From the NCBI GenBank assembly GCA_036676985.1, contig JAKFBU010000075.1, forward strand, positions 1 to 27,024: a DNA stretch of 27,024 nucleotides. The letters run 5' to 3'. Below, piece by piece: positions 1 through 20,011 of the stretch (position 1 is its first letter; each line of letters starts with the position of its first letter). The notes beneath the pieces were generated by a model, which made no database searches, had not been told where the DNA came from, and saw only the letters and a program-made list of their open reading frames with translations. The position numbers were made by a program, and so were the translations under genes. This DNA is from Candidatus Sericytochromatia bacterium. Its GTDB lineage: Bacteria; Cyanobacteriota; Sericytochromatia; S15B-MN24; UBA4093.

Positions 1-590
1 GCCTCCTGGACGAGGCCTTCGACGTCGCGGGCCTTGAGCTCGTTCAGGGTCGCCGTCAGCCCGGCGTGCCGGTGGGTGCGCGTGACGGCGTCGTAGGTGA
101 CCTTGCCGAGCACGTCGGCGGCCGTGAGGCCGTGCAGGTCCCAGAGGAGAGAGACGGCGGTGGTGGCTGCCGAGAGCTGGACCGTCGTGCCCGAGACCGA
201 CGTCCAGCCCGTGGCCGTGAGCTGAACGAGCGTGCGCAGGCGAAACAGCGCGCTGGAGGCGCCGCCCAGGGTCTTGGTGGACTCGAGCAGGTAGAGCGTG
301 CCGAGGGTCGGCGTGAAGGTGCCGAGCGCCTGGACGGTGAAGGTCCCGTCGCTCGCGGTGAGGCCCGTGCCCTTGGCCTGGAAGGTCGCGGGGTCGATGA
401 GCGTCACCGTCGCGTTGGCCTTCACCTGCCCGGAGCTCGCCTGGGCATGATAGCTTGCCGGCACCAGGAGCTCGCCCGTGAGCAGCGGAAGGCCCTGCGC
501 CGTCGGCTGCCCGATCGGGGTCATGGGCGATGGGCGGCATCCCAGGGTCAACAGGGCCGCGAGCAGGAACGTGACGAACAACCTCATCAT
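1..590 (-). CDS. Lipoprotein with conserved QA-motif N-terminal domain; 3' end runs off the window (not in the ORF track)
   Basis: Hand translation from ATG 590: MMRLFVTFLLAALLTLGC (lipobox) ... LTGELLVPASYHAQASSGQVKANATVTLIDPATFQAKGTGLTASDGTF ... YLLESTK ... FRLRTLV ... GWTSVSG ... DVEGLVQE. Open to base 1. GGAG SD lies within the end of the upstream gene. Clear paralog of 595-2862 and 4801-5793. Confidence 0.88.
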   Translation of the reverse strand, partial: MMRLFVTFLLAALLTLGCRPSPMTPIGQPTAQGLPLLTGELLVPASYHAQASSGQVKANATVTLIDPATFQAKGTGLTASDGTFTVQALGTFTPTLGTLYLLESTKTLGGASSALFRLRTLVQLTATGWTSVSGTTVQLSAATTAVSLLWDLHGLTAADVLGKVTYDAVTRTHRHAGLTATLNELKARDVEGLVQE

Positions 591-594
591 GGCA

Positions 595-2862
595 TCACTC
601 CTGCACGAAGCCCTTGGCCGCACGGGCGATCTCGTCCGGCGTCCTGGCGTAGTCGTAGAGGCGGAACTGGTCGATGACGGCGTTGGAATGGCCGCTCACG
701 CCGTCCGCCTCGGAGCCGACGATGAACTGGGGGGCCGTCCCGAAGGTGAAGCTGGGCGTCGCTCCGCTCGTGAAGCTGCGGTACTCTACGCCGTTCAGGT
801 AGAGACGCACGTCCGCCGAGGAGGAGACCCAGGTCGCCGCCACGTGGTGCCACTGACCCTTCTGGATGAGCCGCTGGGTGTCGGCGGCGCTGAGGCCCGT
901 GCGGCGGGTCCGCGACTCGTCGCCCGGGACGTCGACGATGCCGAAGTACAGGCCCATGGTCGACATGTCCCCGAAGCGCGTCACGAACCGTAGGGTGCCG
1001 TTGTCGAGCGCGAAGTGCATCCGGTTCGCCCAGTCCGAGCTGTTGGTGAGCGGCTTGAACCAGTATTCGACCGTCCCGGTGGAGTAGTTGAAGTTTCCGG
1101 CCGTGGGGAAGGCCATGGGCGGGTTGGTGGGCGTTAACTTCTGGAGCCGGTGGCTGCTCTGATCCGCCACGAAGAGTCCGCCGTCCGGTGCGAACGCGGC
1201 GTCTCGGACGGTCTGGAACTGCCCGGGCCCGTAGCCCTGGGACCCGAACGTGCCCAGGGATCTGCCGGCCGGGTCGAACTTTTGAATGCGCTGGCCGTAG
1301 TACTCCGTCACCCAGATGTTGCCCGCGTTGTCGAGGACGATGTCCTCCGGACCGTTCATCTGCCCGGCGCCGGTGCCCAGGGTGCCCCACTGGCCCAGGT
1401 AGGTCCCGTTGGAGGCGAAGCGCTGGATGCGGTGGTTGATGCGATCGGCGACCAGGACCTCGCCGGTGGACGTGAAGTTGAAGCCCAACGGCCCGTTGAA
1501 GGCCCCGTTCACCGAGCCGCTCGCGGTCTGGACGCCCGCGGCGGTGGTCCAGACCGTTCCGTTGCCGATGCCCAGGAGGAAGGTGCCGTTCGCATCGTAC
1601 TTGAGCATCCGATTGTTCGCGTAGTCGGATACCCAGACGTTGCCCTGGGGATCGAAGCGGGCCATGTGCGGCGCGTTGAGGAAGTTGTGGCCCCCGGCGC
1701 TCGCGATGGCCGGCGCGGTCGTCCAGCCGCTCGTGCCCCCGCCGATGCCGAAGAGCAGGTTGCCCTGCTGGTCGAGCTTGAGGACTCGGCCGTTGGAATA
1801 ATCCGTCATCAGCATGGCCCCCGAGCCGTCGAGGTCGATGGAGTGGGGGTTGCTGAAGGTGCCGACGCCCGAGCCGACCGTGGCAAGGTTCCAGAGGTAG
1901 CGCAGGTCGGGCGAGAATTTCTGGAGCCGGTTGTTGTTCCGGTCGGTGGCGAAGACGTTGCCGAACCGGTCGACGGCCACGCCGGTGGTGTTGACGAAGA
2001 GGCCGGGCGCGGTGCCGTAGCCGCCGACCTGGGTGTCGGGGAGCACGAGCGAGTTGGCGAACGCCACGGCCTTGCCGCCGTCGCGCCCCGCGACGAGCGT
2101 GGCCCCCACCCCGGAGCTCGAGCCGACGGCCAGGGCGTCCTCCAGGTCGAAGATCACGTTACCGCCCTTTGGGCCGAGGCTCAGGCCGTACGTGCCGCTC
2201 GACGCGGTGTAGGTCACCCAGCGCATGGGATCCAGGTTGGCGGCGAGCGCCTGGGTCACCAGGCCCGCCACCGTGTCCACGTCCGCGGTCGTGATCCCCC
2301 CGGTCGGCGTGAAGGCCGCGCTCCCCGGGTCCAGCGTCCCCAGGAGGGACGAGGCCGACACGGATCGCAGGTCCTTGATCGCGGCGAGGGCCGTCGTCCG
2401 GGCCGTCAGCAGCACGCCCGACCCGCCGGACTGGGCGGCGGTGGTGCCGCTCAGGGACTTCCAGCGGGTCCCGTCCCACGACACCAGGGTGCGGAGGCGC
2501 AGGACGGCGCGATCGCTCGACCTGTCGAAGCTCTTGACCGCGTCCAGCGCGTAGACGGCGTTGGTGGTCGGCGTCCAGGTCACGAAGGGGTTGAGCCCGA
2601 AGGCGCCCGAGGCGTCCGTGAGGCCCGTGGCGACCACGGCGTTGCTCGCATCGAGCAGCGTGACGGTGGCGTAGGGCATCAGGTCGCTGGCGAGCGCCTG
2701 CGCGGAGCGGCCGCCCTCGACCCGGCCCCACAGCCGATCGGGCTCGGTGACGATCGCCCCGGCGCCCGTCGGTCCCGCTCCGGTCGGGGCGAGGGCCGGC
2801 TGGCACCCTCCGAGGAGGGCCAGGGTCAGGATCAAGCAGGCGCGGCGCACTGGGAAGCTCAT
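595..2862 (-). CDS. Lipoprotein (755 aa): QA-motif N-domain + NHL beta-propeller + LamG/ConA-like domain
   Basis: The true start is ATG 2862 (MSFPVRRACLILTLALLGGC), overlapping the upstream TAA (TAATG). The 5' part of the 1372-aa ORF is a shadow frame. NHL blades include GVAVDRFGNVFATDRNNNRLQKF and PEDIVLDNAGNIWVTEYYGQRIQKF. LamG motifs are GTVEYWFKP, WHHVAATW, LYLNG and IDQFRLYDYA. Confidence 0.9.
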   Translation of the reverse strand: MSFPVRRACLILTLALLGGCQPALAPTGAGPTGAGAIVTEPDRLWGRVEGGRSAQALASDLMPYATVTLLDASNAVVATGLTDASGAFGLNPFVTWTPTTNAVYALDAVKSFDRSSDRAVLRLRTLVSWDGTRWKSLSGTTAAQSGGSGVLLTARTTALAAIKDLRSVSASSLLGTLDPGSAAFTPTGGITTADVDTVAGLVTQALAANLDPMRWVTYTASSGTYGLSLGPKGGNVIFDLEDALAVGSSSGVGATLVAGRDGGKAVAFANSLVLPDTQVGGYGTAPGLFVNTTGVAVDRFGNVFATDRNNNRLQKFSPDLRYLWNLATVGSGVGTFSNPHSIDLDGSGAMLMTDYSNGRVLKLDQQGNLLFGIGGGTSGWTTAPAIASAGGHNFLNAPHMARFDPQGNVWVSDYANNRMLKYDANGTFLLGIGNGTVWTTAAGVQTASGSVNGAFNGPLGFNFTSTGEVLVADRINHRIQRFASNGTYLGQWGTLGTGAGQMNGPEDIVLDNAGNIWVTEYYGQRIQKFDPAGRSLGTFGSQGYGPGQFQTVRDAAFAPDGGLFVADQSSHRLQKLTPTNPPMAFPTAGNFNYSTGTVEYWFKPLTNSSDWANRMHFALDNGTLRFVTRFGDMSTMGLYFGIVDVPGDESRTRRTGLSAADTQRLIQKGQWHHVAATWVSSSADVRLYLNGVEYRSFTSGATPSFTFGTAPQFIVGSEADGVSGHSNAVIDQFRLYDYARTPDEIARAAKGFVQE

Positions 2863-4790
2863 TAGTACGTTACCCCCACGTCCTGGACTTCGGGCGAGTT
2901 GGCAGGGTTGCTCGTGGTGAGCGACAGGCGCACCTTGAGGTATCGCCCGGTGACGCCGACCAGGTTCCGGGCGTTGTTGCCCACGCTCGTCGCGCCCGCC
3001 ACCGCCGACCAGCCGCTCCAGGTCGCGTTGTTGGTGCTCGTCGCCACGCTCACCGTGACGTCGGTGCCCGCGGGCAGCGCCGCGACGTTGTAGAAGACCG
3101 TGCCCCAGGTCGTGCCGGTCTTGCCGCTGTCGACGCCCGGCGTCTCGTAGGTGCCGGCCGCGGCGTAGGCGCTCACGGCGGGCGTGCGATCGCCCGTCAG
3201 GCGCAATCCGCCGGTCGCGTCCGTGGGGTTGACCCCCCGCCACCGGTTGACGCGCGAGCCGTCGCGGTCGACGGTGAAGAACGTCCCGTCCGAGGCCCAG
3301 GCGATGCCCTCCGGGTTCTGGAGCTGGCCCGGAGCGGCGCCGTTGACGCCGAACCGCGAGAGCAGGGTGCCCGTGGGGGTGAAGACCTGGTAGTGGTTCG
3401 GGGTTCCGCCGTAGGCGGCCACGTAGAGCAGCCCCTGCGGGCTGATCTCGAAGTAGCCGGCGGAGCCCGCGGGCTTGTCCGCCGTGGTGCAGGACCACTC
3501 CCGCAGGAAGGTGCCGTTCGGGTCGAAGACCTGGACGCGATCGCTGCCGTCGGTCGTGTACATGTTGCCGGCCGCATCGAGGCGAATGTGCCAGGACGGG
3601 TTGAAGGAGCTCGGGGTGCTGCCCGTGGCCGTGGTGGCCGGCGGGGCGGCGCCCGCGGCCCACGTGACGCCCTGGCCGATGCCGCGCACGAAGCGGCCCG
3701 AGGCGTTGAAGACGTGCATGCGGCTCGCGATGCGGTCCGCGATGTAGACGTTGTTGCCCGCGTCCACGTCGATGCCGTAGGGCTCGAAGTGGCCGTTCGC
3801 GTTGCTGTAGGCCTGGACCGCGGGGGCCGCGGCCGGGACCGTCCAGACGGTGTTGTAGCCGAAGCCCATCAGGAAGGTGCCGTTGGCGTCGTACTTCAGG
3901 ATCCGGCGGTTGTTGCGATCGGCGACGTAGAGGTTGTCCTCCCGATCGACCATGACGCCCGCGGGCGCGTTGAAGCCGTAGTTGGTGACGCCCACCGCGG
4001 GCACCGGGGCCGCCGAGGGCGTGGCCCAGGTCGTGTCGCTGCCGATGCCGCGCAGGAAGTTGCCGTTGACGTCGAACTGCTGGACCCGGTGGTAGACGTC
4101 GTCGCTCACCCAGATCCGGTCCTTCGAGTCGATGGTGAGCATCTGGAGGTGGGTGGAGAACTGGCCGCTCAGGTTGCCGGTGCTTCCGAAGCGCGAGAGG
4201 AAGGTGTTCTGCCCCGGGTAGAACACCTCGACGCTCGAGGCGGCGCCGGCCGACAGATCGTTCATGGACGTGAAGACGCGCTGGAAGCCCAGCTGAACCG
4301 CACCGCTGCCGGCAGGGCCGTTCACCAGGCTGTCGGTGCCGGTACCCGAGCGCACGGCGACCGAGAGGCTCAGGGCGAGGTTGTTGGTGCCCGAGGCGAG
4401 CGTCACGGGCATCCGGCCCCAGCTCATCATGGTGCCCGAGGCGTTGGTGCCCGACCACCCGGCCGCATAGAGGGTGTAGGCCCCGGTCGGCAGGCCCTTG
4501 AAGTTGACGCTGGTCGCTCCGCCCGTGTTGACGGTGGCCGTCTGGTCGGGGACGCCCGCGGCCCGCAGGAGCACCTGCACCGACTGGGTGTTGGAGACGA
4601 TGGCCTGGCCGGTCCGGGGCAGGGCCACCTGGATGGTCACGGTCGCGAGCCCCGAGGCGGCCGGGGCCTGGACGGAGGTGGCGGGAGCGGCCAGGGGCCG
4701 CGCGGGCTGGCACGAAGGCAGGGCCAGCGCCGACAGGGCCATGAGCCCCCAGGTCAGATGAGTCTTGGCTGCTCGAGCGACGTTCCGCAT
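2862..4790 (-). CDS. Lipoprotein (642 aa): transthyretin/CarboxypepD_reg-like N-domain + NHL beta-propeller + C-terminal beta-sandwich
   Basis: Signal peptide ends ALALPSC. NHL blades include PAGVMVDREDNLYVADRNNRRILKY and PEGIAWASDGTFFTVD. C-terminus is WSGWS...GRYLKVRLSL...SPEVQDVGVTY. GGAAGG SD precedes ATG 4790. Confidence 0.88.
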   Translation of the reverse strand: MRNVARAAKTHLTWGLMALSALALPSCQPARPLAAPATSVQAPAASGLATVTIQVALPRTGQAIVSNTQSVQVLLRAAGVPDQTATVNTGGATSVNFKGLPTGAYTLYAAGWSGTNASGTMMSWGRMPVTLASGTNNLALSLSVAVRSGTGTDSLVNGPAGSGAVQLGFQRVFTSMNDLSAGAASSVEVFYPGQNTFLSRFGSTGNLSGQFSTHLQMLTIDSKDRIWVSDDVYHRVQQFDVNGNFLRGIGSDTTWATPSAAPVPAVGVTNYGFNAPAGVMVDREDNLYVADRNNRRILKYDANGTFLMGFGYNTVWTVPAAAPAVQAYSNANGHFEPYGIDVDAGNNVYIADRIASRMHVFNASGRFVRGIGQGVTWAAGAAPPATTATGSTPSSFNPSWHIRLDAAGNMYTTDGSDRVQVFDPNGTFLREWSCTTADKPAGSAGYFEISPQGLLYVAAYGGTPNHYQVFTPTGTLLSRFGVNGAAPGQLQNPEGIAWASDGTFFTVDRDGSRVNRWRGVNPTDATGGLRLTGDRTPAVSAYAAAGTYETPGVDSGKTGTTWGTVFYNVAALPAGTDVTVSVATSTNNATWSGWSAVAGATSVGNNARNLVGVTGRYLKVRLSLTTSNPANSPEVQDVGVTY

Positions 4791-4800
4791 GCGCCCTTCC

Positions 4801-5793
4801 TTACCGGAGCCCCGAGATGGAGAGGTTCGCCGTGGACAGCACGACGAAGGTCGGCAGGCCGTAGGTCGCCCCGTCGAACGAGACCACGAGCGGCCCGGTC
4901 GTCGCTCCGGCCGGCACGGTGCAGGTCAGCGTCCGGCGGTCGGGCGTGAGGCCCGTGACCGTCGCGGGCACCCCGTTGAAGGTCACGACGTTGTTGCCGG
5001 CCGTGGCGTTGAAGGTGAGGCCCGTCAGCGTCACGGTGTCGCCGACGCTCGCGCCCACGGCCGGGTCCGGGGTGGTCGTAACCCGGCTCGAGCCGGCGTT
5101 TGGCAAGAGGAAGGCGTTGGCGACGCTGTCGTAGGCGACAGAGGCGAAGGGGTCCTGGTCCTGGTCGAGGGCGGCCTTGGCCATGCCGAAGACCCCGTGG
5201 AACTCGCTGTTGGTGAGGTTGGCGTAGTCCTGACGCCCGTTGAAGGTGTCCGTCGTGGCGGGCGCCAGCGTGGAGTCGCTCACGAAGGTCGCGACCTTTC
5301 CGAGCAGCCCCAGGGCGTTCACGGCGCGGGCCGTGCCGCTGCGGTGGCTGACGATGACGCTGACGGTCGTCGTGCCCAGGGTGATGGCGATGGGGCTGCC
5401 GGGAATGTCGCTGGAGAGCGAGGTCCAGCCGTCCTGGTAGCTGATGATCGTCCGCAGCCGGGCGGCGTCCTTGCCCGCGCGGTTGGTCGAGAGCCCCTTG
5501 ATCGCCTCCAGGTAGTAGGTGGTGTTGGCCGCCGGTCGGAACCCCGCTCCGAAGCTCAGTCGGAAGGAGCCGGAGGCCGTGGTGAGGCTGGTGCCGAGGG
5601 TCTGGTTCGAGATCACGTCGATCAGGCTGACGGTCGCGGCGTTCCCCACGTCGCCGATGGAGGCCTGCGTCCGGTAGCCGAGGCTCGGCAGGTGGACCTG
5701 TCCGACCAGATCGGGCACGCTCGGCAGGGGGCCGAGGGTGGCACAACCGGTCAGGATGAGGCCGAGCAAGCCCAGGGTCGTTTGGCGTGGCAT
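4801..5793 (-). CDS. Lipoprotein (330 aa): QA-motif N-domain + C-terminal IPT/TIG domain
   Basis: Start ATG 5793 after GGGAG: MPRQTTLGLLGLILTGC lipobox, then YRTQA. IPT/TIG signature GDTVTLTGLTF...NNVVTFNGVPATV...LTCTVPAGATTGPLVV. Confidence 0.9.
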   Translation of the reverse strand: MPRQTTLGLLGLILTGCATLGPLPSVPDLVGQVHLPSLGYRTQASIGDVGNAATVSLIDVISNQTLGTSLTTASGSFRLSFGAGFRPAANTTYYLEAIKGLSTNRAGKDAARLRTIISYQDGWTSLSSDIPGSPIAITLGTTTVSVIVSHRSGTARAVNALGLLGKVATFVSDSTLAPATTDTFNGRQDYANLTNSEFHGVFGMAKAALDQDQDPFASVAYDSVANAFLLPNAGSSRVTTTPDPAVGASVGDTVTLTGLTFNATAGNNVVTFNGVPATVTGLTPDRRTLTCTVPAGATTGPLVVSFDGATYGLPTFVVLSTANLSISGLR

Positions 5794-5829
5794 GAGCAGC
5801 TCCCTGAGGGCTAGTCCCTCAAGCAAGGC

Positions 5830-5856
5830 ATACCCTTCAATCTTGCTCGCCAAACC
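5830..5856 (-). promoter_or_regulatory. SigB/SigF-type promoter for the lipoprotein operon
   Basis: Minus strand reads GGTTT-N16-GGGTAT, 36 nt upstream of ATG 5793. This matches the known Bacillus SigB and mycobacterial SigF consensus. Confidence 0.6.
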
Positions 5857-5976
5857 GCTCGGTGGGCGCCCTGAGCGGCATGTGAGCCGCCAGGTCCCTG
5901 GAGACGCGCGTTACGGCGCAGAAGACGCCGTTATTACGGTCGTCATGACAGGCAGGATTCTTGGAGGGGGGGCGAC

Positions 5977-7098
5977 CTAGAGGTCGGACGGAGCCGGATC
6001 CTCGTCCTGGCCCGGTCCCAGCGGCACCTGGTCCGCGGGCTCCGGCTCGGACAGCACGGGATCGACGGGCTCGGGGGTCGCAGGAGCGGCGAGCTTCGGC
6101 TCGTCCGCGCGCAGCACGCCGTTCTCGGGCAGGGGCGTCGCCTCGAGCTTCTTTTTCTTGATCCGCTTCTTCTTGTGGTGGATCCGGTACTCCTCGAGGG
6201 GGGCCGGCGTCCACATCATGGGCGGGCTCGTCTTGTCGGAGATGCGGAGCATGTAGGGCAGGTTGAAGCGCGGGTTGTCGTCCACCCGTCCCGGCACGAT
6301 GAAGCGGGCCTTGTTGCCCTGGTCCAGGTAGTAGGCCTCGACGAGCCCGTGCGACTTGGCGACCCAGCTCGTGGTCGTCATGGGCATGGGCAGGGTCTTC
6401 ATGACCACGAGCATGCCCTCGGCGTTCTTGCCGACCAGGAGCCGCTCGCGCGGGATCATGTTGTGCAGCTCCTGCTTGAGGCCGGTGTAGGGATCGCTGT
6501 AGTCAGAGGCCGGCCCGTAGTCGCTGTACAGGTGTCCGAGGCCGCCCACGAAGGCCACGTACTTCTCCTCGTAGCCCGGCCGCCAGCCGCTGTAACCGAA
6601 CTCGACGGTGCCGTAGCGCGTGAGCGCCATGTAGTAGCGCCGATCCGCGAAGGCGCGGCTGATCTCGGAGGCGACCTCCAGGTGGCCGTTGATGAAGAGG
6701 TCGCCGATGGCGTGGGCGAAGTAGTTGTTGCCCTTGTGCTCCTCGAAGAAGGGGCCGCTGAAGAAGAGCATGGCCGTCGTGTCGTTGAAGGCCATGCGCT
6801 CGACCTCCCAGCCGCGCGCCAGCTCCAGGCGGATGCCGCGCGGGTCGATGACGGCCACCTTGGCGTCCTGCGTGACCTCGAGCTTCATCTCGTCGGCGCG
6901 CGCCGCGGCCGCCGGGCTCATGTCGTCCACGATCCGGGTCATGACCATGGACTTGGCGTATTCCCCCGAGATCATGCCGACCAGAAACAGCCCCGGCAGG
7001 CCGGCGAGGCCGACCAGGAGGGGAGCTAGCCATGGGCGAGCGGGCGTGGCGCCGCGGGTCCGGGGGGCCCGTCGTTTCGAGGGAATGGATCGACTCAC
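5977..7098 (-). CDS. Membrane-anchored protein, divergent phosphodiester glycosidase (NAGPA/DUF2233)-like
   Basis: N-terminal TM segment. Motif order FSGPFF / GDLFING / RERLLVG / EAYYLDQGNK parallels family motifs INGGFF / G.li.nG / PRTAVG / A.NLDGGGS. Poly-Lys stretch, then a Pro/acidic tail. GTG start is uncertain. Confidence 0.6.
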   Translation of the reverse strand: MSRSIPSKRRAPRTRGATPARPWLAPLLVGLAGLPGLFLVGMISGEYAKSMVMTRIVDDMSPAAAARADEMKLEVTQDAKVAVIDPRGIRLELARGWEVERMAFNDTTAMLFFSGPFFEEHKGNNYFAHAIGDLFINGHLEVASEISRAFADRRYYMALTRYGTVEFGYSGWRPGYEEKYVAFVGGLGHLYSDYGPASDYSDPYTGLKQELHNMIPRERLLVGKNAEGMLVVMKTLPMPMTTTSWVAKSHGLVEAYYLDQGNKARFIVPGRVDDNPRFNLPYMLRISDKTSPPMMWTPAPLEEYRIHHKKKRIKKKKLEATPLPENGVLRADEPKLAAPATPEPVDPVLSEPEPADQVPLGPGQDEDPAPSDL

Positions 7099-7178
7099 GG
7101 ACAGTGGAGGGGCAAAGGGGCTCGGGGCGAGCCGCGAAGGGGGATCACAAGCGTTATCCTACCCAGCAGGACCCTCCA

Positions 7179-7187
7179 ATTCTACCA
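7179..7187 (-). promoter_or_regulatory. Extended -10 promoter (TGGTAGAAT) for the 5977-7098 gene
   Basis: TGn-TAGAAT on the minus strand in the divergent intergenic region. Confidence 0.45.
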
Positions 7188-7235
7188 TGGGCGCCCTTTG
7201 GGGCGCGAAGATGCTGGATCCTGAGCCCGCCTGAG

Positions 7236-7244
7236 TGTTACGAT
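7236..7244 (+). promoter_or_regulatory. Extended -10 promoter (TGTTACGAT) for the permease
   Basis: TGn-TACGAT, 32 nt upstream of ATG 7277. Confidence 0.4.
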
Positions 7245-7276
7245 GATCGCATCGTCCCTATGTACAAGAGGTGCCC

Positions 7277-8740
7277 ATGCGCGACATCGTCCTTCGCAAG
7301 AAGTCCCTGGAGTCCATCCGGCGCGAGCAGGAGCAGCACGGCCATGGGCTCAAGAAGGTGCTCGGACCCTGGTCGCTGATCGCGATCGGCATCGGCTGCA
7401 CCATCGGCTCGGGCATCTTCATCATGCCGGGGATCGTGGCGGCCACCCATTCGGGTCCGGCCGTCGTCATCTCCTTTTTGCTGGCGGCCCTGGCCTGCGC
7501 GCTCGCGGCCCTCAGCTACAGCGAGCTGGCCGCGATGATCCCCATCTCGGGCAGCGCCTACAGCTACGCCTACGCCACGCTGGGCGAACTCGTCGCGTGG
7601 TTCATCGGGTGGAACCTGCTCCTGGAGTACGGTCTTGCCAACGCGGCCACCGCCGCGGGCTGGGGCGGCTACCTCGACCACTTTCTCGGCGCCTTCGGCC
7701 TGTCCATTCCGCCGCAGCTGCTCTACACGCCCGGCGCCCCCATCCCGGGCACGGACCTGGTGGGCTGGTTCAACGTGCCGTCGGCCGTCATCGTCCTCCT
7801 GGTGACGCTCCTGATGGTCGTGGGCATCCGCGAGAGCGCCCAGACCAACACGATCATCGTGGGCTTCAAGATCGCGGTGCTCGCCCTCTTCGTCGCGCTG
7901 GCGGCCCCGCACTTCCAGCCCCAGCTGATGACCCCGTTCATGCCCTTCGGCTGGCACGGGGTCATGACGGGCGCGGCCATCCTGTTCTTCCTGTTCGTGG
8001 GCTTCGACGCGGTCTCGACGGTGGCCGAGGAGGCCAAGAACCCTCAGCGCGACGTGCCCATCGGCATCCTCGGGGGCCTCGCCATCGTGACGGTGCTCTA
8101 CGTGGCCGTCGCGGTGGTGCTGACGGGCGTGCTGCCCCTCGACAGGCTCAACGTCAAGGAGCCGCTCGCCATGGTGCTCACGGCCTTCAACCACCCCTGG
8201 GCCTCCTTCATCCTCTCGGCGGTGGCGGTGGTGGGCATCGCGAGCGTCCTCTTGGTCGGCTCCATCGGCCAGACGCGCATCCTCTACGTCATGAGCCGGG
8301 ACGGCCTCATGCCCCGCTTCATGTCCAGGGTGCACGCCCGCTTCGGCACGCCGGTCGAGACGACGCTCATCCTGGGCGTCATCACGGCCATCCTGGCGGG
8401 CAGCGTGCCCCTCGACGCGCTGGCGGATCTGGTGAGCATCGGCACGCTCGCGGCCTTCTCGGCAGTGTCCTTGGGCGTGCTCGTGCTGCGCCGGACCGCC
8501 CCCGACATGCCGCGCGGCTTCCGGACCCCCTGGGTGCCCGTGGTGCCCATCGCGGGCATCGCCATCAACCTGTACCTGATGAGCAGCCTGAGCCTGCAGG
8601 TCTGGATCCGCTTCCTCATCTGGCTGGCCATCGGCATCGCCATCTACTTCTGGTGGGGCCACAAGTCGGCGAGCCGCGTGATGGCGGAGCGCGCCGCGTC
8701 GGTCCCCGCCGAGCTGCATCCGTCGCCGGAGGTGCGCTAG
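7277..8740 (+). CDS. APC-family amino acid permease (cationic amino acid transporter/YfnA-like)
   Basis: GIGCTIGSGIF, ALSYSELAAMIPISGSAYSYAY, GWNLLLEY, FVGFDAVSTVAEEAKNPQRD, many TM helices. ATG 7277 follows AAGAGG; GTG 7271 is an alternative start. Confidence 0.95.
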   Translation: MRDIVLRKKSLESIRREQEQHGHGLKKVLGPWSLIAIGIGCTIGSGIFIMPGIVAATHSGPAVVISFLLAALACALAALSYSELAAMIPISGSAYSYAYATLGELVAWFIGWNLLLEYGLANAATAAGWGGYLDHFLGAFGLSIPPQLLYTPGAPIPGTDLVGWFNVPSAVIVLLVTLLMVVGIRESAQTNTIIVGFKIAVLALFVALAAPHFQPQLMTPFMPFGWHGVMTGAAILFFLFVGFDAVSTVAEEAKNPQRDVPIGILGGLAIVTVLYVAVAVVLTGVLPLDRLNVKEPLAMVLTAFNHPWASFILSAVAVVGIASVLLVGSIGQTRILYVMSRDGLMPRFMSRVHARFGTPVETTLILGVITAILAGSVPLDALADLVSIGTLAAFSAVSLGVLVLRRTAPDMPRGFRTPWVPVVPIAGIAINLYLMSSLSLQVWIRFLIWLAIGIAIYFWWGHKSASRVMAERAASVPAELHPSPEVR

Positions 8741-8819: not shown

Positions 8820-9413
8820 ATGAGCGACATGGGCCTGGTGCTGAAGGCGGCGACCGTGGCGGCCGACGCGCATGCCCGCCAGCGACGCAAGGGGAACGAC
8901 GAGCCCTACATCAACCATCCCTTGCGGGTGGCGCACCATGCCGAGCGCTGCGGCCTGTCGCCGCCGGCGATCGCCGCCGCCCTCCTCCACGACGTGGTGG
9001 AGGACACGCCCGTCACCTTCGAGGACCTGCGCCGCGAGTTTCCCGCGGAGGTGGTCCACATGGTCCACCTCCTGACCAAGTGGTGGGCCGATGACGCCCC
9101 CGCCGAGGTCAAGGCCGTCGAGAAGCCCAAGTACTACGGCACGCTCCTCTCCGAAAAGGGCGAGGCCATCGACGTCAAGCTCCTGGATCGCGCGGACAAC
9201 CTGGTCGACATGGCCCGCATGCTGCCCCGCTCGCGGGGCTGGGCCGAGCGCTACCTCAGAAAGACGCTCAAGGAGTTCGAGCCCGTCGTGGCCGTCTGCC
9301 AGAACGAGCGGGTCCTGGAGATCTACCGGGCGGCCGTCACCCGCCTCCAGAAGGCCCTCGGGGGAGCAGAGTTCAAAGCAGCAAATTCATCCGCTCGATC
9401 CCGTCGGCGCTGA
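8820..9413 (+). CDS. Stand-alone HD-domain protein, Mesh1-like small alarmone ((p)ppGpp) hydrolase
   Basis: HARQRRK...EPYINHPLRVA, AALLHDVVEDT, VKLLDRADNL. AGGAG SD. Confidence 0.85.
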   Translation: MSDMGLVLKAATVAADAHARQRRKGNDEPYINHPLRVAHHAERCGLSPPAIAAALLHDVVEDTPVTFEDLRREFPAEVVHMVHLLTKWWADDAPAEVKAVEKPKYYGTLLSEKGEAIDVKLLDRADNLVDMARMLPRSRGWAERYLRKTLKEFEPVVAVCQNERVLEIYRAAVTRLQKALGGAEFKAANSSARSRRR

Positions 9414-10575
9414 GGAAGTACAGCGTCTTGCCGTCCGGGTCCAGCACGAACGACCGCTTGTCGTTGTGCCGGGTGTAGCCCACGATCTCGGTGCCCTCGC
9501 GGAAGTTGCCCGGGTAGTCGAGCGCGCGGCGCCGCACCGAGCCGCCGATGCCGAGGTAGATGGCCTTGCCGTCCGCCGACCAGCAGTGCCCCTCGTAGCT
9601 GTAGTAGTAGATCTTCGTGGGCGCCTGGGCCCCGTCCGCGAAGTAGTAGATGCCGTCTCCCGCCTCGGCCGGCGGGATGGGCAGGCCGGTGTCCGGATCG
9701 GTGCGCTCGGAGACCGTTTTGCAGGTCATGGCGCGGTGGTAGAGCAGGCCCCACTGGTTCCAGCTCAGGGGCTCGATGCCCTTGTAGATGGGGTTGATGG
9801 GCATGTCCTCCAGCCGCTGGGGAGCGCTGCCGTCGGCGCCCGCCACGTACAGGTCCACGTGCCCGTAGCCCGTCTCCGCGGAGTCCGTGGTGCGATCGCG
9901 CAGGTAGGCGACCCGCGCGGCATCCGGTGACCAGACGGGGGTCGTCAGCGGGTAGGAGTCCTGCACGAGCGCGCCCGGCCGGGCCGCTCCCGGCTGCTGG
10001 GAGCACAGCGCGAACGAGCCCGCCGCCGCTCGCACGTACAGCAAGCCGGCAGGTCCCGACCAGTCGAACCACCGCACCGTCTCACCCGCCTCGAGCGGCA
10101 GATCGCAGAGCTTCTGGGGCGCTCCGCCGGCAACCGGCTGGAGCATCGCGGCGTTGCCCTTCAGGTAGGCCAGATGCCTGGCATCGGGCGAGAGCACGAG
10201 GTTGGTGCCCTCCAGGAGGGCCGGGTCGGGGCGCAGGACCTCGTGGTTCGCGATCGTCAGGGTGGGGCCCGTTCCTCCCGCAAGCTCGGTCGAGAAGGTG
10301 GCGGACTGGGTGAAGTAGCGGGGATAGGTGGCCGTGATGGTATGGACACCGGCCTTGAGGCCCGCGAAGCGGTAGACTCCCTCTGCGTCGGTCGTGACCT
10401 CCATGGGGCCGCTGGGGCCCGTCAGCATGACCTTCGCGTCCTTGGCGGATCCGACCACCTCCAGGCGCACGATGCCCTTCACGTCTGAGCTCGCGGAAAC
10501 GGTCCGGGGCGCCGGGCAGCCTGCCAGCAGCAGGGCGCCCGACAGGGCGAGGAGGCGTCGTATCACCTGGTGCAT
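9373..10575 (-). CDS. Lipoprotein with CarboxypepD_reg-like domain + TolB-like beta-propeller
   Basis: LLLAGC lipobox; TTDAEGVYRFAGLKAGVHTITA; PD40-like blades LSPDARHLAY, PVWSPDAARVAY, WSADGKAIY, LDPDGKTLYF. Confidence 0.85.
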   Translation of the reverse strand: MHQVIRRLLALSGALLLAGCPAPRTVSASSDVKGIVRLEVVGSAKDAKVMLTGPSGPMEVTTDAEGVYRFAGLKAGVHTITATYPRYFTQSATFSTELAGGTGPTLTIANHEVLRPDPALLEGTNLVLSPDARHLAYLKGNAAMLQPVAGGAPQKLCDLPLEAGETVRWFDWSGPAGLLYVRAAAGSFALCSQQPGAARPGALVQDSYPLTTPVWSPDAARVAYLRDRTTDSAETGYGHVDLYVAGADGSAPQRLEDMPINPIYKGIEPLSWNQWGLLYHRAMTCKTVSERTDPDTGLPIPPAEAGDGIYYFADGAQAPTKIYYYSYEGHCWSADGKAIYLGIGGSVRRRALDYPGNFREGTEIVGYTRHNDKRSFVLDPDGKTLYFLSADGIERMNLLL

Positions 10576-10664
10576 GGGTCACCTGCGGCAAGGGCCGCGC
10601 CGATCGGTGGAGGGCCGAGCCTCATGTTCCCATGTCGGCCGCAATCTAGACAGGCGCGGAGCGA

Positions 10665-10696
10665 CCTCGGGCGGCCTCGTTCGAGGCCGCCCGAGG
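10665..10696 (-). terminator. GC-rich stem-loop after the 10727-11227 gene
   Basis: CCTCGGGCGGCCTCG-TT-CGAGGCCGCCCGAGG, 15-bp perfect arms, no U-tract. Confidence 0.55.
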
Positions 10697-10726
10697 GGCG
10701 TCGTGAAGGGGGCGAGGAGGTGAGGG

Positions 10727-11227
10727 CTAGTAGGAGCGGACGCGCTGCACGCGCTTGAGGGCGTCGACGATGACCGTCTGCATCTGGTTGGCGATCTCGC
10801 GCTGACGGTTGATGTCGCCGGTGTTGGACCACTGGTAGCGCAGATCCTCGTAGCGGGCGATGGCCTGGTCGGCGATGTCGAAGACCTGGCGGGAATCGTA
10901 GCCGCTGGCGCCGGACTCGCCCGAGACGGCGTCCCGGACGTCGCCGATGCCCTGCGAGAGGACGACGAGCATCTGGTCCTCGATGCGATCCTTCTCGCGA
11001 TCGCTCCAGGCCCGCAGCCAGGAGTCACGCAGGCGATCGTAGCTGCGCAGCGTGTCGGCGGCGACGGTCTTGGCGCGGCTGACGGTGTAGTAGTCCTTGG
11101 CCTGGACCGCATCGGCCGTCGCCGACTTGATGCCGGCGGTCGTGCCGCCGGGGGCCGCGCCGCAACCGGCAAGCAGGGTGGACGCCAGGGCGAGGGTGGC
11201 AAGGACCGACGCGAGATGCTTGGCCAT
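10727..11227 (-). CDS. Small alpha-helical lipoprotein with an internal duplication (166 aa)
   Basis: ATG 11227 after AGGAG. MAKHLASVLATLALASTLLAGC lipobox. Two similar helical-hairpin halves. Confidence 0.85.
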   Translation of the reverse strand: MAKHLASVLATLALASTLLAGCGAAPGGTTAGIKSATADAVQAKDYYTVSRAKTVAADTLRSYDRLRDSWLRAWSDREKDRIEDQMLVVLSQGIGDVRDAVSGESGASGYDSRQVFDIADQAIARYEDLRYQWSNTGDINRQREIANQMQTVIVDALKRVQRVRSY

Positions 11228-11382
11228 GGATGGGTCTCTCCTCTTATCGACGCGGCGCAAAGGTTCGACTTTGCTTTCACTACGCTTTGACAAGGAGCTT
11301 GTCGTTTTCGGAGCGGGCGATCCTTCTTATCGGATGGCTAACGTTGCGTTAAGGATCGGTGAAGAAGCGGCGCCGCCAACGC

Positions 11383-11443: not shown

Positions 11444-12652
11444 CTAGGCGACCGCGACGTCGTCCAGCCGGTTCACGGCCGCGATGAAGGTGCTGTAGCC
11501 GTTCAGACCGCCGTTCACGGCCCGGCGCACGTCCTCCCAGTCTCCGCGATTGGCCATGGCGGGGATGCCGCGCCGCTTGAAGTACTCCACGAACACCCGG
11601 GCGGCGACGTTCGGATCGAGGGCCAGGTTGGGGTTGCCCTCCAGGTCGACGCCGAGCGCCTGGCCGTACGTGCGGTAGTTGGCGCGGCCCGTCAGCTGGA
11701 TGAAGCCCCGGCCCTTGAAACGGGGGCCGTCTCCGGGTTGGGTGTTGCCGAGATCCGAACGACCGTTGTAGGCCTCGCCGCTGGCGTACTCGGGGATGGG
11801 CTCGAAGCGTCCCACCTCGACCTTGATGGTCGCGAGCGCGGCCATGACCACCTGATCCGAGGTCATTCCTGCCTCTTCGAGGGCCCGAGCCATCAAGGGC
11901 CAGTACTTCTCGACGTTCTCCCGGGGCGCGCCCAGCGAGCGGGTGACCTCGTCGATGGTGAAGCGCGCGAGGATGCTGCCCGCCGCGGCCGGTGCCGCGG
12001 GCTTGCTGGGAGCGGGGGCCGCGCTGCCGCCGGGCAGCTTCAGGACCTGGCCGGGGAAGATGCGATCCGGGTTGCTGACCTGGTGCCGGTTGAGCTCGAA
12101 GATCTCGCGCCAGCGATTGCCGTCGCCGAGCGTCTTCTGGGCGATGCGGCTCAGGCTGTCGCCGGACTGCACCGTGTAGGTGGGATCCGGAGCCGGAGCG
12201 GGCTTGGCCGGTTCGGGCTTCGGAGCTTCGGCCTTGGGAGCTTCGGGCTTCGGAGCTTCGGGCTTGGCCGGTTCGGGCTTCGGGGCTTCGGCCTTCGGGG
12301 GCTCGGCAGGAGGAGTGGCCGCCGCCTGGGCCTGGGGCGAGAGCTGAAGGCTGTCTCCCGGCAACTTGCCGAGGGGTAGCGCGGTGAGCGCTTCCTGAAC
12401 GACCTGATGGAATTGTGCCAGCGTGGGATTGGCCTGGGGGGAGGCGTAGTAGGCCTGTGGAGCAGCCGGCTGGGGCTGATAACCCTGCTGTGGCGGATAG
12501 TAGGCCTGCGGAGGGGCCGGCTGGGGCTGATAACCCTGCTGCTGAGGCGGATAGTAGGCCTGCGGAGCCGCCGGCTGGGGCTGATAGCCCTGCTGCTGAG
12601 GCGGATAGTAGGCCGGCTGGACCGGCTGAGCATAGTAGTAGGTCGGCTGCAT
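11444..12652 (-). CDS. LysM + GH19 (endolysin-type) muramidase with low-complexity N-terminus (402 aa)
   Basis: ATG 12652 after AGGAGG. LysM: YTVQSGDSLSRIA...WREIFELN...NPDRIFPGQVLKLP. GH19: LATIKVE...E..., LGNTQPGDGPRFKGRGFIQLTGRANY, VRRAVNGGLNG. Confidence 0.9.
   Translation of the reverse strand: MQPTYYYAQPVQPAYYPPQQQGYQPQPAAPQAYYPPQQQGYQPQPAPPQAYYPPQQGYQPQPAAPQAYYASPQANPTLAQFHQVVQEALTALPLGKLPGDSLQLSPQAQAAATPPAEPPKAEAPKPEPAKPEAPKPEAPKAEAPKPEPAKPAPAPDPTYTVQSGDSLSRIAQKTLGDGNRWREIFELNRHQVSNPDRIFPGQVLKLPGGSAAPAPSKPAAPAAAGSILARFTIDEVTRSLGAPRENVEKYWPLMARALEEAGMTSDQVVMAALATIKVEVGRFEPIPEYASGEAYNGRSDLGNTQPGDGPRFKGRGFIQLTGRANYRTYGQALGVDLEGNPNLALDPNVAARVFVEYFKRRGIPAMANRGDWEDVRRAVNGGLNGYSTFIAAVNRLDDVAVA
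12200..12304. repeat. Seven 15-bp coding tandem repeats (EAPKP/EPAKP/EAPKA linker)
   Basis: Units gggcttggccggttc / gggcttcggagcttc / ggccttgggagcttc ..., with a 60-bp higher-order period. Confidence 0.9.
12447..12614. repeat. About three 51/54-bp coding tandem repeats (AYYPPQQQGYQPQPAAPQ)
   Basis: TAGTAGGCC recurs at 12447, 12498, 12552 and 12606. Confidence 0.9.
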
Positions 12653-12748
12653 AGGATCCCTCCTGAGGGGGTTATCGCGGACGCCCATGCAAACCCGGTA
12701 AAGCGAACAGGAAAAGCAGCTTAAGTTCTGGTGAAAGGTTGGGGCGGC

Positions 12749-16648: not shown

Positions 16649-16677
16649 ATCGTCGCACGCGAAACCTGCGCTGTCAA
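16649..16677 (-). promoter_or_regulatory. Sigma70 promoter TTGACA-N17-GACGAT for the kinase
   Basis: Perfect -35 overlapping the PKS stop codon. The -10 ends 6 nt before ATG 16642. Confidence 0.55.
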
Positions 16678-17744
16678 AGCAAATTCGTCGCTAAGTCGGA
16701 TCTCCCGCCGTGTCCCCAGCGAAGCAAGCAGGCCTCCATGGTCAGCCCCGGGCCGAAGGCCATCATGACGGCGTACTCGCCGGGCTTGGGACGGCTGGTC
16801 CGCATGAGGTCGTCGAGCACGAACAGCACGGTGGGCGAGCTCATGTTGCCGTAGTCGCGCAGGACGCGCCGCGACGAGGCCACCTGCTCGTCCGTGAGGC
16901 CGAGGCCTTGTTGCAGGTGGTCGATGATCTTGCGGCCGCCCGGATGGATCCCCCAGTGCCGCACGTCGGCGGGCGATAGCCCGTTGCGGGAGAGCAGGCC
17001 GCGCAGGAGGTCCTCGACCTTGGTGCCGAGAATCTGGGGCACGTAGCTGGACAGGAACATCTTGAAGCCGTTGTCGGTGAGTGAGAACGTCATGTGCTCG
17101 GCCGTGTCGTACTGCGTGAGCGTCTCGGCGTCCACCACCGCGAGGCTCCCCTCGCCCTCGAGCAGCACGGCGGCGGCCCCGTCCGCGAAGAGCGCGCAGC
17201 TCACGACGTGGTCGTCGCTGCCGCCCGGCTGGAAGTGCAGCGAGCAGAGCTCGACGGCCACCATGAGCGATCGACTGCCCTTTTTGGCGAGGACCGCGTC
17301 GCGCGCCCGCGCGAGCCCCGGAAACGCCGCGTAGCATCCCATGCCGAGCACGCAGGTGCGCCGCACGTCCGGCCGCATGCCGAGCTCCTTGGCGAGCGTC
17401 AGGTCGAGCCCCGGGATCTCGTAGCCCGTACACGAGACCACCACGAAGGTGTCCACGTCCTGGGCCGCAAGGCCCGCGTTGTCCAGGCAACGCCGACAGG
17501 CCTCGGCCGCGAGCCGGTGGGCCTCGGCGACGTAGACCTCGTTGCGCGCCTGGGTGCTTGGGTTGGCGAGGATGAAACCGGGGTCGGCGAGCACGCTGTG
17601 CCGGGTGGCGATCGCCGAGCGCTCGAAGATGGCCCGCGCCTTGGAGTCGGGCCCGTGCTCCCGGCCGAACAGCAGCGCGAAGATCTCGCCCTGGTCGTAG
17701 CGGTGCGGGGGGACGGCGGTCGCGAGGCTGGTGATGTGGGTCAA
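16674..17744 (-). CDS. Type III polyketide synthase (chalcone-synthase-like, 356 aa)
   Basis: TTG start at 17744 after AGGAGG, with a TTGA overlap with the upstream stop. Catalytic triad GMGCYAA, WGIHPGG, YGNMSS; also ALFADGAAA and AFGPGLT. Confidence 0.95.
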   Translation of the reverse strand: MTHITSLATAVPPHRYDQGEIFALLFGREHGPDSKARAIFERSAIATRHSVLADPGFILANPSTQARNEVYVAEAHRLAAEACRRCLDNAGLAAQDVDTFVVVSCTGYEIPGLDLTLAKELGMRPDVRRTCVLGMGCYAAFPGLARARDAVLAKKGSRSLMVAVELCSLHFQPGGSDDHVVSCALFADGAAAVLLEGEGSLAVVDAETLTQYDTAEHMTFSLTDNGFKMFLSSYVPQILGTKVEDLLRGLLSRNGLSPADVRHWGIHPGGRKIIDHLQQGLGLTDEQVASSRRVLRDYGNMSSPTVLFVLDDLMRTSRPKPGEYAVMMAFGPGLTMEACLLRWGHGGRSDLATNLL

Positions 17745-18985: not shown

Positions 18986-19041
18986 CGTCTTGCGTTGGCC
19001 TTCTTGTCCGACCGCCCCCGAGGCGGTAGCATACATCATAT

Positions 19042-19998: not shown

Positions 19999-20011
19999 CA
20001 AGGAGGCGCGC

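What the first reader, a model, noticed from the sequence alone, without database searches (positions are those of the whole stretch)
1..5793. Operon of lipoproteins sharing a lipobox-strand-xxxQA architecture: candidate protease-matured surface filament or adhesin system
Seen: at least 4 closely coupled genes (gaps of 10, -1 and 4 nt). Each has lipobox Cys, a Pro/Ala linker, one beta-strand (LVGQVHL, VTIQVAL, LWGRVE, LTGELLV) and then a conserved QA motif: YRTQA 5662-5676, RTGQA 4602-4616, RSAQA 2695-2709, YHAQA 438-452. Three continue into the same ~200-aa domain (ATV[ST]L[IL]D...[GA]T.LT...G.F...P....Y.L[ED]..K...RLRT[LI][VI]...W.S[LV]S...TT...[LV]LG[KT]), which I cannot assign to a named family, fused to different cargo (IPT/TIG; NHL+LamG). 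Established: Bacteroidota type V pilins are exported as lipoproteins, lose their first strand by proteolysis and polymerise by strand exchange. Inference: QA marks a maturation or sorting site, and the shared domain is a modular display or assembly unit for variable adhesins. This would be an analogous but apparently distinct system.
Basis: partly seen in the sequence, partly recalled or inferred. Interest (0 to 1): 0.82.

Follow-up and report, generated by a model that had tools for sequence, protein, structure and literature searches.

The report
New lipoprotein pedestal domain family
Four adjacent lipoprotein genes of a cyanobacteria-related bacterium share a conserved start, three of them through a previously undescribed domain that carries variable binding heads, and nothing found here shows that they are cut or build filaments.

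Summary
Four tightly packed minus-strand genes (A 4801-5793, B 2862-4790, C 595-2862, D 3-590, cut by the window edge) each encode a lipobox Cys, a Pro/Ala tether, one beta-strand and a QA motif at the stated coordinates. A, C and D share a ~190-residue N-terminal module.

- **Family size:** the module matches no Pfam or NCBIfam model. A profile search found 641 clusters at 50% identity, and the module is N-terminal in all 150 listed.
- **Lipoproteins:** 131 of those 150 have a lipobox-like Cys upstream.
- **Cargo:** variable, including TIG, NHL or Kelch propellers, LamG and CBM domains.
- **Taxa:** every named source is a Sericytochromatia or cyanobacterial MAG.
- **Fold:** AlphaFold models give one transthyretin/CarboxypepD_reg-like sandwich plus a helical subdomain.
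- **QA conservation:** about 88%, but other residues are more conserved.

Of six testable type V pilin features, one is met, one is inconclusive, and four are not met. The unmet ones are a second sandwich, a family-wide C-terminal donor strand, sequence or fold similarity, and Bacteroidia origin.

I read the module as a membrane-proximal pedestal. Cleavage at QA remains untested.

The parts
4801..5793 (-). Gene A: 330-aa lipoprotein with the N-module, one IPT/TIG domain and a short C-terminal tail
   Evidence: TIG E 1.3e-6, residues 246-309. Orthologues start at the same MPRQT.
5743..5745 (-). Lipobox Cys17 codon of A (LTGC)
5116..5724 (-). N-module of A (residues 24-226): strand A, QA loop, beta-sandwich and helical subdomain ending in D214-P215
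5662..5676 (-). YRTQA motif of A (residues 40-44), in the loop between strands A and B
   Evidence: residues 44-50 have pLDDT below 50.
4804..4845 (-). C-terminal tail of A (residues 317-330, LSTANLSISGLR) after the TIG domain
2862..4790 (-). Gene B: 642-aa lipoprotein with its own N-terminal beta-sandwich (not the N-module), an NHL propeller and a C-terminal sandwich
4602..4616 (-). RTGQA motif of B; Q62-A63 are invariant in 9 of 9 B-family proteins
595..2862 (-). Gene C: 755-aa lipoprotein with the N-module, an NHL propeller and Laminin_G_3
   Evidence: An identical-module protein, P0028, is in the database.
2188..2754 (-). N-module of C
2695..2709 (-). RSAQA motif of C
3..590 (-). Gene D, cut by the window edge: lipoprotein with the N-module. 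Its orthologue in L001 is 767 aa and continues into CBM_4_9 and Laminin_G_3
438..452 (-). YHAQA motif of D

Best explanation
This is a tandem array of lipoprotein genes from a high-GC, Sericytochromatia-like relative of cyanobacteria.

**Architecture.** Three of the four proteins (A, C, D) open with a previously unmodelled ~190-residue N-terminal module, in this order:
1. A lipidated Cys.
2. A flexible Pro/Ala/Gly tether of 7-79 residues (median 21).
3. One transthyretin/CarboxypepD_reg-like beta-sandwich.
4. A small helical subdomain that ends in an invariant Asp-Pro.

The 'strand' is strand A of the sandwich. The QA motif sits in an enlarged loop between strands A and B, with consensus R/Y-x-[TVA]-Q-A-T-phi-x-[DE]-phi-A.

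**Proposed role (inferred).** The module works as a membrane-proximal pedestal. It holds variable ligand-binding or enzymatic heads away from the membrane: a TIG stalk, NHL or Kelch propellers, and LamG or CBM lectin domains. This resembles the Ig-like domains of Bacteroides SusE/F and SGBP-B lipoproteins.

**What is shown and what is inferred.**
- Shown: gene structure, paralogy, family size, N-terminal position, lipobox, variable cargo and predicted fold.
- Inferred: the pedestal role, the surface or periplasmic location, and that QA is a structural or recognition element and not a cleavage site.
For: **Genes and paralogy.** Searches give the gene structure and the paralogy.

**Family.**
- A profile of 7 module sequences found 641 cluster representatives at E<=1e-3. 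Of these, 593 are at <=1e-10 and 241 at <=1e-30.
- In the 150 listed, the module starts at residue 1-125 in every protein, and lengths run from 220 to 1201 aa.
- A lipobox-like x-x-[GASC]-C lies upstream of the module in 131 of 150. Of the other 19, 3 have a signal peptide with an atypical Cys box, and 16 lack any visible signal and look truncated.

**Cargo.** I scanned 75 of the 150. By my reading:
- TIG in 51
- NHL or TEN_NHL in 22
- Kelch in 9
- Laminin_G_3 in 6
- CBM_4_9 in 3
- no family in 12

Only these C-terminal domain families were listed, apart from a few stray low-scoring names.

**Fold.**
- The AF2 model of full-length A (53-row alignment) has mean pLDDT 85.8.
- It shows strand A at 29-33, the sandwich to residue 137, helices at 139-151 and 195-210, and TIG at 239-316.
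- The sandwich's nearest structures are transthyretin-like: EMC7 (probability 0.96-0.99) and 5-hydroxyisourate hydrolase (0.97). All have E above 1e-3.
- Weak CarboxypepD_reg matches start at strand B.

**Conservation.** The most conserved positions are spread through the whole module and are not centred on QA:
- T30 147/150, G51 146, F53 147, Y69 146
- E72 144, K75 146, R88 149, R90 150
- W100 146, T119 149, D183 150, P184 149

**Gene neighbourhood.** No dedicated partner gene recurs. Neighbours differ in the window, L001, L002, L003 and L004.

**Functional analogue.** SGBP-B is a lipoprotein of tandem Ig-like domains that projects a distal binding site away from the membrane (PMC4850273, passages read).
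Against: **The QA loop is conserved yet poorly modelled.**
- Positions 16-26 of the profile are conserved, yet the region has pLDDT below 50 (residues 44-50; 16-24).
- That pattern is also what an exposed recognition or processing site would look like.
- B shares P-R-x-x-Q-A after its first strand (9 of 9 homologues) although its domain is otherwise unrelated. A purely structural role does not explain this well.

**Invariant charged residues.** E72, K75, R88, R90 and D183 suggest a specific binding site, which is more than a passive spacer.

**No experimental data.** Nothing is available on location, lipidation or ligands.

**No coordinates.** Model coordinates could not be inspected, so the burial of Q43/A44 was not measured.
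Confidence: 0.58

Rival explanations
1. **Docking or oligomerisation module.** The N-module binds a common envelope partner (an outer-membrane protein, peptidoglycan or a polysaccharide), or binds the modules of its paralogues. The operon's products would then assemble into one complex on the membrane, with the QA loop and the invariant E/K/R/R/D residues forming the interface.
For: - Polar residues are invariant: E72 144/150, K75 146, R88 149, R90 150 and D183 150.
- Several paralogues occur per genome and in tandem: 3 in the window, and at least 5 in the genome that holds L001-L003.
- B-type and C-type proteins list the same longest-contig length in four cases (12934, 713659, 69408, 46641). 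I take this to mean they share a contig.
Against: - No partner was identified.
- In L004 a module gene stands alone between a methionine gamma-lyase gene and an amidohydrolase gene.
- No conserved neighbour appears in the 5 contexts examined.
Confidence: 0.2
2. **Release site.** The loop is cut at [TVA]-Q-A|T, an AXA-like pattern, by a signal-peptidase-like or other envelope protease. This would free the ectodomain from its lipid anchor (shedding or secretion) without any polymerisation.
For: - Profile position 18 is T, V or A in 129 of 150.
- Position 20 is A, T or S in 145 of 150.
- Position 19 is Q in 132 of 150.
- The loop is modelled with low confidence.
- The same motif is present in the unrelated N-domain of B.

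The comparison with AXA signal-peptidase sites comes from my own knowledge, not from a call.
Against: - The site lies more than 20 residues beyond the lipobox, far from where signal peptidase I normally cuts.
- An invariant Q at -2 is not a signal-peptidase requirement.
- Removing strand A would open the sandwich.
- No protease gene is linked.
Confidence: 0.1
3. **The first reader's model.** This is a type V-pilus-like system. Cleavage at QA removes strand A, and a strand from another subunit fills the groove. That strand could be the short tail after the TIG domain of A-type proteins. A-type proteins would form the stalk, and C and D would act as tip adhesins.
For: - The geometry resembles Mfa1 (Cys20, cleavage at Arg49|Ala50 in the beta1-beta2 loop; PMC13655056, passages read). 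Here the order is Cys17, strand 29-33, then R41-T-Q-A44.
- R is the commonest residue at profile position 16 (88 of 150).
- The sandwich is transthyretin-like, as pilin domains are.
- Short A-type proteins are common (59 of the 155 examined) and 28 of them end in a phi-x-G-G-phi-x-P-like tail. Only 4 of 96 long proteins do.
- The tail is sometimes repeated 2-4 times.
- Cargo-bearing members lack the tail, as tip pilins lack donor strands.
Against: - There is one sandwich plus helices, not two sandwiches.
- No FimA or Mfa family appears in Pfam for the 4 window proteins at E<=1 or for 75 relatives at E<=1e-5.
- Foldseek gave no hit at E<=1e-3. One Parabacteroides fimbrial protein appeared at rank 19 (E 0.038, TM 0.26) among generic sandwiches, and none appeared in the rows listed.
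- The tail motif also occurs at internal domain boundaries, and some A-type proteins lack it (P0033, P0108).
- In the monomer model the tail is not tucked against the module.
- No protease gene is linked.
- The lineage is not Bacteroidia.
Confidence: 0.07

Closest known systems
Bacteroides SusE/SusF and SGBP-B surface glycan-binding lipoproteins
   Same: - Both are lipid-anchored by an N-terminal Cys.
- In both, N-terminal beta-sandwich domains act as a stalk and binding domains sit distally.
- Both families vary widely in length and in their heads (PMC4850273, passages read).
- The TIG domain of A superposes on the TIG of the Bacteroides TIG+propeller lipoproteins BT_3476 and BACOVA_00264: probability 1.0, rmsd 2.0-2.3 over 87-88 columns, E about 4e-3.
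   Different: - There is no sequence homology in the N-module.
- The module has a helical subdomain and a conserved QA loop.
- The genes are not in a SusC/SusD locus.
- The lineage is Cyanobacteriota-related.
- No glycan binding has been shown.
Type V pilins (FimA/Mfa1) of Bacteroidia
   Same: - Lipoprotein precursor.
- A first beta-strand followed by a conserved loop about 25-30 residues after the Cys.
- A transthyretin-like sandwich.
- Operon neighbours with and without adhesin-like cargo (for the pilin features).
   Different: - One sandwich plus helices, not NTD plus CTD.
- No conserved C-terminal donor strands across the family.
- No sequence or significant fold match.
- No Arg-specific protease context.
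- Not Bacteroidia.
CarboxypepD_reg / transthyretin-like beta-sandwich domains (Pfam PF13620 and relatives)
   Same: - The opening strand pattern L-x-G-x-V, then A-T-V-x-L, then G-x-F, then Y-x-L.
- Weak hits to PF13620, bMG3 and Big_6.
- The nearest folds are EMC7 and 5-hydroxyisourate hydrolase.
   Different: - Scores are far below the Pfam cut-off: 13-14.9 bits against 32.3.
- The hairpin between strands A and B is enlarged into the 14-18-residue QA loop.
- About 85 residues of helical subdomain are fused on and co-conserved, including an invariant D-P.

Membership tests
Type V pilins (FimA/Mfa1) | Exported as a lipoprotein with a lipidated N-terminal Cys | tested here: met
   A lipobox is present in A, B, C and D, and in 131 of 150 family members. 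Lipidation itself was not tested.
Type V pilins (FimA/Mfa1) | An anchor strand followed by a loop with a conserved protease (Arg) cleavage site | tested here: inconclusive
   The strand and a conserved loop exist. R is at profile position 16 in 88 of 150, and QA in 132-133 of 150. Cleavage cannot be tested with these tools.
Type V pilins (FimA/Mfa1) | Two transthyretin-like beta-sandwich domains (NTD and CTD) | tested here: not met
   The AF2 models show one sandwich followed by a helical subdomain. The pilin features come from PMC13655056.
Type V pilins (FimA/Mfa1) | Conserved C-terminal donor strands in stalk and anchor subunits | tested here: not met
   C-termini vary across the family: propeller, LamG or TIG. 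A short tail motif occurs in 28 of 59 short members, but it also occurs at internal domain boundaries.
Type V pilins (FimA/Mfa1) | Sequence or fold similarity to the FimA/Mfa families | tested here: not met
   No such Pfam family was found. Foldseek against the PDB gave 0 matches at E<=1e-3 with either model.
Type V pilins (FimA/Mfa1) | Restricted to Bacteroidia | tested here: not met
   The named sources are Sericytochromatia or cyanobacterial MAGs.
Type V pilins (FimA/Mfa1) | Polymerisation into filaments | not testable with these tools
   This needs biochemistry or electron microscopy.
CarboxypepD_reg (PF13620) | Match above Pfam's gathering score | tested here: not met
   C scored 13.0 bits and D 14.9 bits, against a cut-off of 32.3.
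Transthyretin-like beta-sandwich fold | Structural superposition on members of the fold | tested here: inconclusive
   EMC7 gave probability 0.96-0.99 with target TM 0.43-0.48. HIUase gave probability 0.97 with target TM 0.51. All have E above 1e-3.
SusE/F-like SGBP lipoproteins | Encoded in a polysaccharide utilisation locus next to SusC/SusD homologues | tested here: not met
   No SusC/D-type domains were found among the window ORFs scanned or the neighbours in L001-L004.
Bacterial lipoproteins (signal peptidase II substrates) | A signal peptide ending in a lipobox L-x-[GAS]-C | tested here: met
   The lipoboxes read LTGC, LPSC, LGGC and TLGC.

The most novel reading that the evidence does not exclude
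The conserved R-x-[TVA]-Q-A loop is a processing site. Cleavage there would remove the lipid anchor together with strand A. The opened sandwich would then accept a strand from another subunit, for example the phi-x-G-G-phi-x-P tail of the short TIG-ended paralogues. That would make this a strand-exchange surface polymer, or a hetero-complex with cargo-bearing tips. It would have arisen independently of Bacteroidia type V pili, in the Sericytochromatia/cyanobacterial lineage.
Probability: 0.07. Interest if true: 0.85.

Novelty: new variant of a known kind. Interest (0 to 1): 0.4.

Why it matters
The module defines a large protein family with no family model: 641 clusters at 50% identity. It heads many of the big TIG, propeller and lectin lipoproteins of Sericytochromatia-like bacteria, a group whose cell envelope is almost unstudied.

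- **Annotation.** Naming the module would improve the annotation of hundreds of 'hypothetical' or 'IPT/TIG domain-containing' proteins.
- **An experimental handle.** It offers a way to ask how relatives of cyanobacteria display proteins on or under their outer membrane.
- **If QA is a cleavage site.** It would be a new lipoprotein maturation step. If strand exchange followed, it would be a second, independent origin of a type V-like assembly principle.

Tried and rejected
**Complex prediction.**
- I ran complex prediction on two copies of A cut to residues 45-330 (after QA), with the 53-row alignment.
- The verdict was no answer: score 0.01 against a mark of 0.42.
- This counts neither for nor against binding.

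**ESM Atlas look-alikes of the module.** Only unnamed clusters came back at 0.90-0.92, with low shared-feature counts. This gave no usable lead.

**PDB sequence search with the module profile.** There was one hit, at E 0.24 (a lectin), which I reject as noise.

**Is B's N-domain a divergent module?** I rejected this on hhalign probability 0.5% and the absence of an HMM hit.

**A dedicated protease or secretion partner.**
- The neighbours in the window, L001, L002, L003 and L004 have nothing in common.
- They include a permease, LeuRS, an FtsH-type protease 4 kb away on the other strand, a histidine kinase, NDK, a methionine gamma-lyase and an amidohydrolase.

**Promoter and terminator scan of 1-7400.** Nothing was found above the shuffled expectation, so the operon status rests on gene spacing alone.

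**Searches that failed or could not be made.**
- The search for related loci with alignments A2 and A3 failed for lack of a conserved stretch. A smaller alignment worked. Its patterns were narrow, so 4 module loci in 2 genomes is a lower bound.
The taxonomic range of most of the 641 clusters is therefore unchecked.

**Literature.** A search for 'Sericytochromatia' plus 'lipoprotein' found 1 paper, which was irrelevant. I did not find this module described in print, but this one search is the only basis for saying so.

Full report
**Observation**

The window is about 69% G+C. Its first 5.8 kb carries four minus-strand genes:
- A: 4801-5793, 330 aa
- B: 2862-4790, 642 aa
- C: 595-2862, 755 aa
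- D: 3-590, running off the window

The gaps between them are 10, -1 and 4 nt. Each protein starts with a signal peptide and a lipobox Cys (LTGC, LPSC, LGGC, TLGC). A Pro/Ala-rich tether, one beta-strand and a QA dipeptide follow.

A, C and D are paralogues over about 150-250 residues (32-37% identity, E 2e-12 to 7e-18).

B lacks that domain but keeps P-R-x-x-Q-A after its first strand. That motif is invariant in 9 of 9 B-type homologues.

**The shared module is a real, large and unnamed family**

Pfam and NCBIfam give nothing for it except sub-threshold CarboxypepD_reg, bMG3 and Big_6 matches. A PDB sequence search gave nothing either.

A profile of seven module sequences (alignment A2) was searched against 1.84 billion cluster representatives:
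- 641 proteins at E<=1e-3, 593 at <=1e-10 and 241 at <=1e-30.
- In all 150 listed, the module lies at the N-terminus, starting at residue 1-125.
- Those proteins are 220 to 1201 aa long.

A lipobox-like Cys precedes the module in 131 of the 150. Of the other 19:
- 3 have an atypical Cys box.
- 16 show no signal peptide and look truncated or mis-started.

The tether from the Cys to the module is 7-79 residues, median 21.

I scanned 75 of the 150 against Pfam. By my reading:
- TIG in 51
- NHL-type propellers in 22
- Kelch in 9
- Laminin_G_3 in 6
- CBM_4_9 in 3
- nothing in 12

The other 74 were not scanned.

**Whose genes are these?**

Source names attached to relatives:
- 'Stenomitos sp.' and 'Pantanalinema sp.' (MAG TPA records)
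- 'Candidatus Sericytochromatia bacterium'
- 'Cyanobacteria bacterium REEB65'
- an unclassified 'bacterium'

The GTDB genome scan found the module in four loci of two genomes.
- L001-L003 are in the 'Stenomitos sp.' MAG, and L004 is in a Sericytochromatia MAG.
- The other 13 loci were TIG-only matches.
- The scan patterns were narrow, so these counts are lower bounds.

L001 is syntenic with the window: it carries A, B, C and D in order, with A 77% and B 82% identical.

Most of the 641 clusters carry no taxonomic label that I could reach.

**Structure**

The module alone (7-row alignment) gave pLDDT 74 and pTM 0.77. Full-length A with a 53-row alignment gave mean pLDDT 85.8. The second model shows:

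| Residues | Element |
|---|---|
| 29-33 | Strand A (blocks 21-30 and 31-40 have mean pLDDT 90 and 76) |
| 44-50 | Loop with pLDDT below 50, starting at the QA alanine (A44) |
| 54-137 | Beta-sandwich |
| 139-151, 195-210, 215-218 | Helices |
| 239-316 | TIG domain |
| 317-330 | Loosely modelled tail |

Foldseek against the PDB gave no match at E<=1e-3 with either model.
- The sandwich's nearest neighbours are transthyretin-like folds: EMC7, 5-hydroxyisourate hydrolase, transthyretin, and CnaB- and X-module-type sandwiches.
- One Parabacteroides fimbrial protein appeared at rank 19 (E 0.038, TM 0.26). It was no better than the generic sandwiches, and none appeared in the rows listed.

The strand consensus L-x-G-x-V-x-F, then A-T-V-S-L-I-D, then G-x-F, then Y-x-L-E follows the pattern of CarboxypepD_reg-type domains. 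The name of that pattern is my recollection. The weak Pfam alignments begin at strand B.

QA lies in an enlarged hairpin between strands A and B.

**How conserved is QA?**

Among the 150 best hits, Q is present in 132 and A in 133.

The surrounding consensus is R/Y-x-[TVA]-Q-A-T-phi-x-[DE]-phi-A. Its hydrophobic spacing fits a short amphipathic helix; that is my inference.

Many positions elsewhere are more conserved: R90 in 150 of 150, D183 150, R88 149, P184 149, T119 149, T30 147, F53 147, and G51, Y69, K75 and W100 at 146 each.

QA is thus a real family feature, but it is not the family's signature. The invariant charged residues point to a specific binding surface somewhere on the module.

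**Test of the type V pilus analogy**

The defining features were taken from passages of PMC13655056.

| Feature | Result |
|---|---|
| Lipoprotein precursor | Met |
| Anchor strand plus conserved loop | Present, cleavage untestable here |
| Two sandwich domains | Not met |
| Conserved C-terminal donor strands | Not met across the family |
| Sequence or fold similarity | Not met |
| Bacteroidia origin | Not met |
| Linked protease or secretion gene | None in the 5 contexts examined |

One point favours the analogy, and I record it as such.
- TIG-ended members often finish with a short phi-x-G-G-phi-x-P-like tail.
- It occurs in 28 of 59 short proteins against 4 of 96 long ones, about six-fold enriched at C-termini.
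- It is sometimes repeated 2-4 times between Pro/Thr linkers.
- Cargo-bearing members lack it, as tip pilins lack donor strands.

Against this:
- The same motif occurs at internal domain boundaries.
- Some short members lack it.
- In the monomer model it is not tucked against the module.

**Most likely mechanism**

These are lipid-anchored modular proteins. The N-module is a membrane-proximal pedestal, possibly with a docking surface, and it presents variable binding or enzymatic heads.

The nearest functional parallel is the SusE/F and SGBP-B class of Bacteroides lipoproteins. Their tandem Ig-like domains project a distal glycan-binding site away from the membrane (PMC4850273, passages read).

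The tandem arrangement looks like local duplication with exchange of heads. B-type and C-type proteins list the same longest-contig length in four cases. I take this to mean they share a contig, which hints at a functional pairing.

My confidence in each reading:

| Reading | Confidence |
|---|---|
| Pedestal | 0.58 |
| Docking or oligomerisation module | 0.20 |
| Release by cleavage at QA | 0.10 |
| Type V-like strand exchange | 0.07 |

**Novelty and verdict**

The filament and maturation part is unsupported but not excluded.

The module is a new domain family within a familiar kind of protein, so this is a new variant of a known kind. It is of moderate interest.

One literature search ('Sericytochromatia' plus 'lipoprotein') found nothing relevant. 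I make no wider claim about what is in print.

Noticed in passing
window 4804-4845 (-); proteins P0029-P0176: Family members that end in a TIG domain often carry a short C-terminal motif, roughly phi-x-G-G-phi-x-P (for example PLVSGGLQP, PSVTGGFKP, TDIGGSFSAK). In the window's A protein the tail is LSTANLSISGLR. The motif is sometimes repeated 2-4 times between Pro/Thr-rich linkers, and a similar motif occurs at some internal domain boundaries. Its role is unknown.
   Followed up: partly
window 5977-7098 (-): The gene just upstream of A, on the same strand, encodes a 373-aa protein. It has an N-terminal membrane anchor, a Lys-rich stretch and a Pro/Glu-rich tail. It matches no Pfam or NCBIfam family. 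It may be the first gene of the operon.
   Followed up: partly
window 9373-10575 (-), 10579-11280 (-), 11444-12688 (-): Another cluster of envelope proteins. The first has CarboxypepD_reg (E 6e-8) plus a PD40 repeat. The second is a 233-aa ORF with no family. The third has LysM plus a weak GH19 chitinase-like match.
   Followed up: no
window 16674-21253: A possible small-molecule biosynthesis cluster. It holds a type III polyketide synthase (chalcone/stilbene synthase domains) and a FAD-dependent oxidoreductase or halogenase-like protein (17741-19039, -). It also holds a SAM methyltransferase (19042-19998, +) and a DinB_2 + FGE-sulfatase protein of the EgtB/OvoA type (20012-21253, +). The EgtB/OvoA comparison is my recollection.
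   Followed up: no
L001-L003 (record DATNQJ01, titled Stenomitos sp.): The closest genome is labelled as a Leptolyngbyaceae cyanobacterium. However, its relatives by this protein family are labelled Sericytochromatia, and the window is about 69% G+C. The record's genus name may not reflect its true placement.
   Followed up: no
L001 5283-7586: The CBM_4_9 region of the D orthologue also matches NCBIfam 'phage head spike fiber domain' (NF048003, E 4.9e-18). This is probably a shared carbohydrate-binding jelly-roll and not a phage origin.
   Followed up: no
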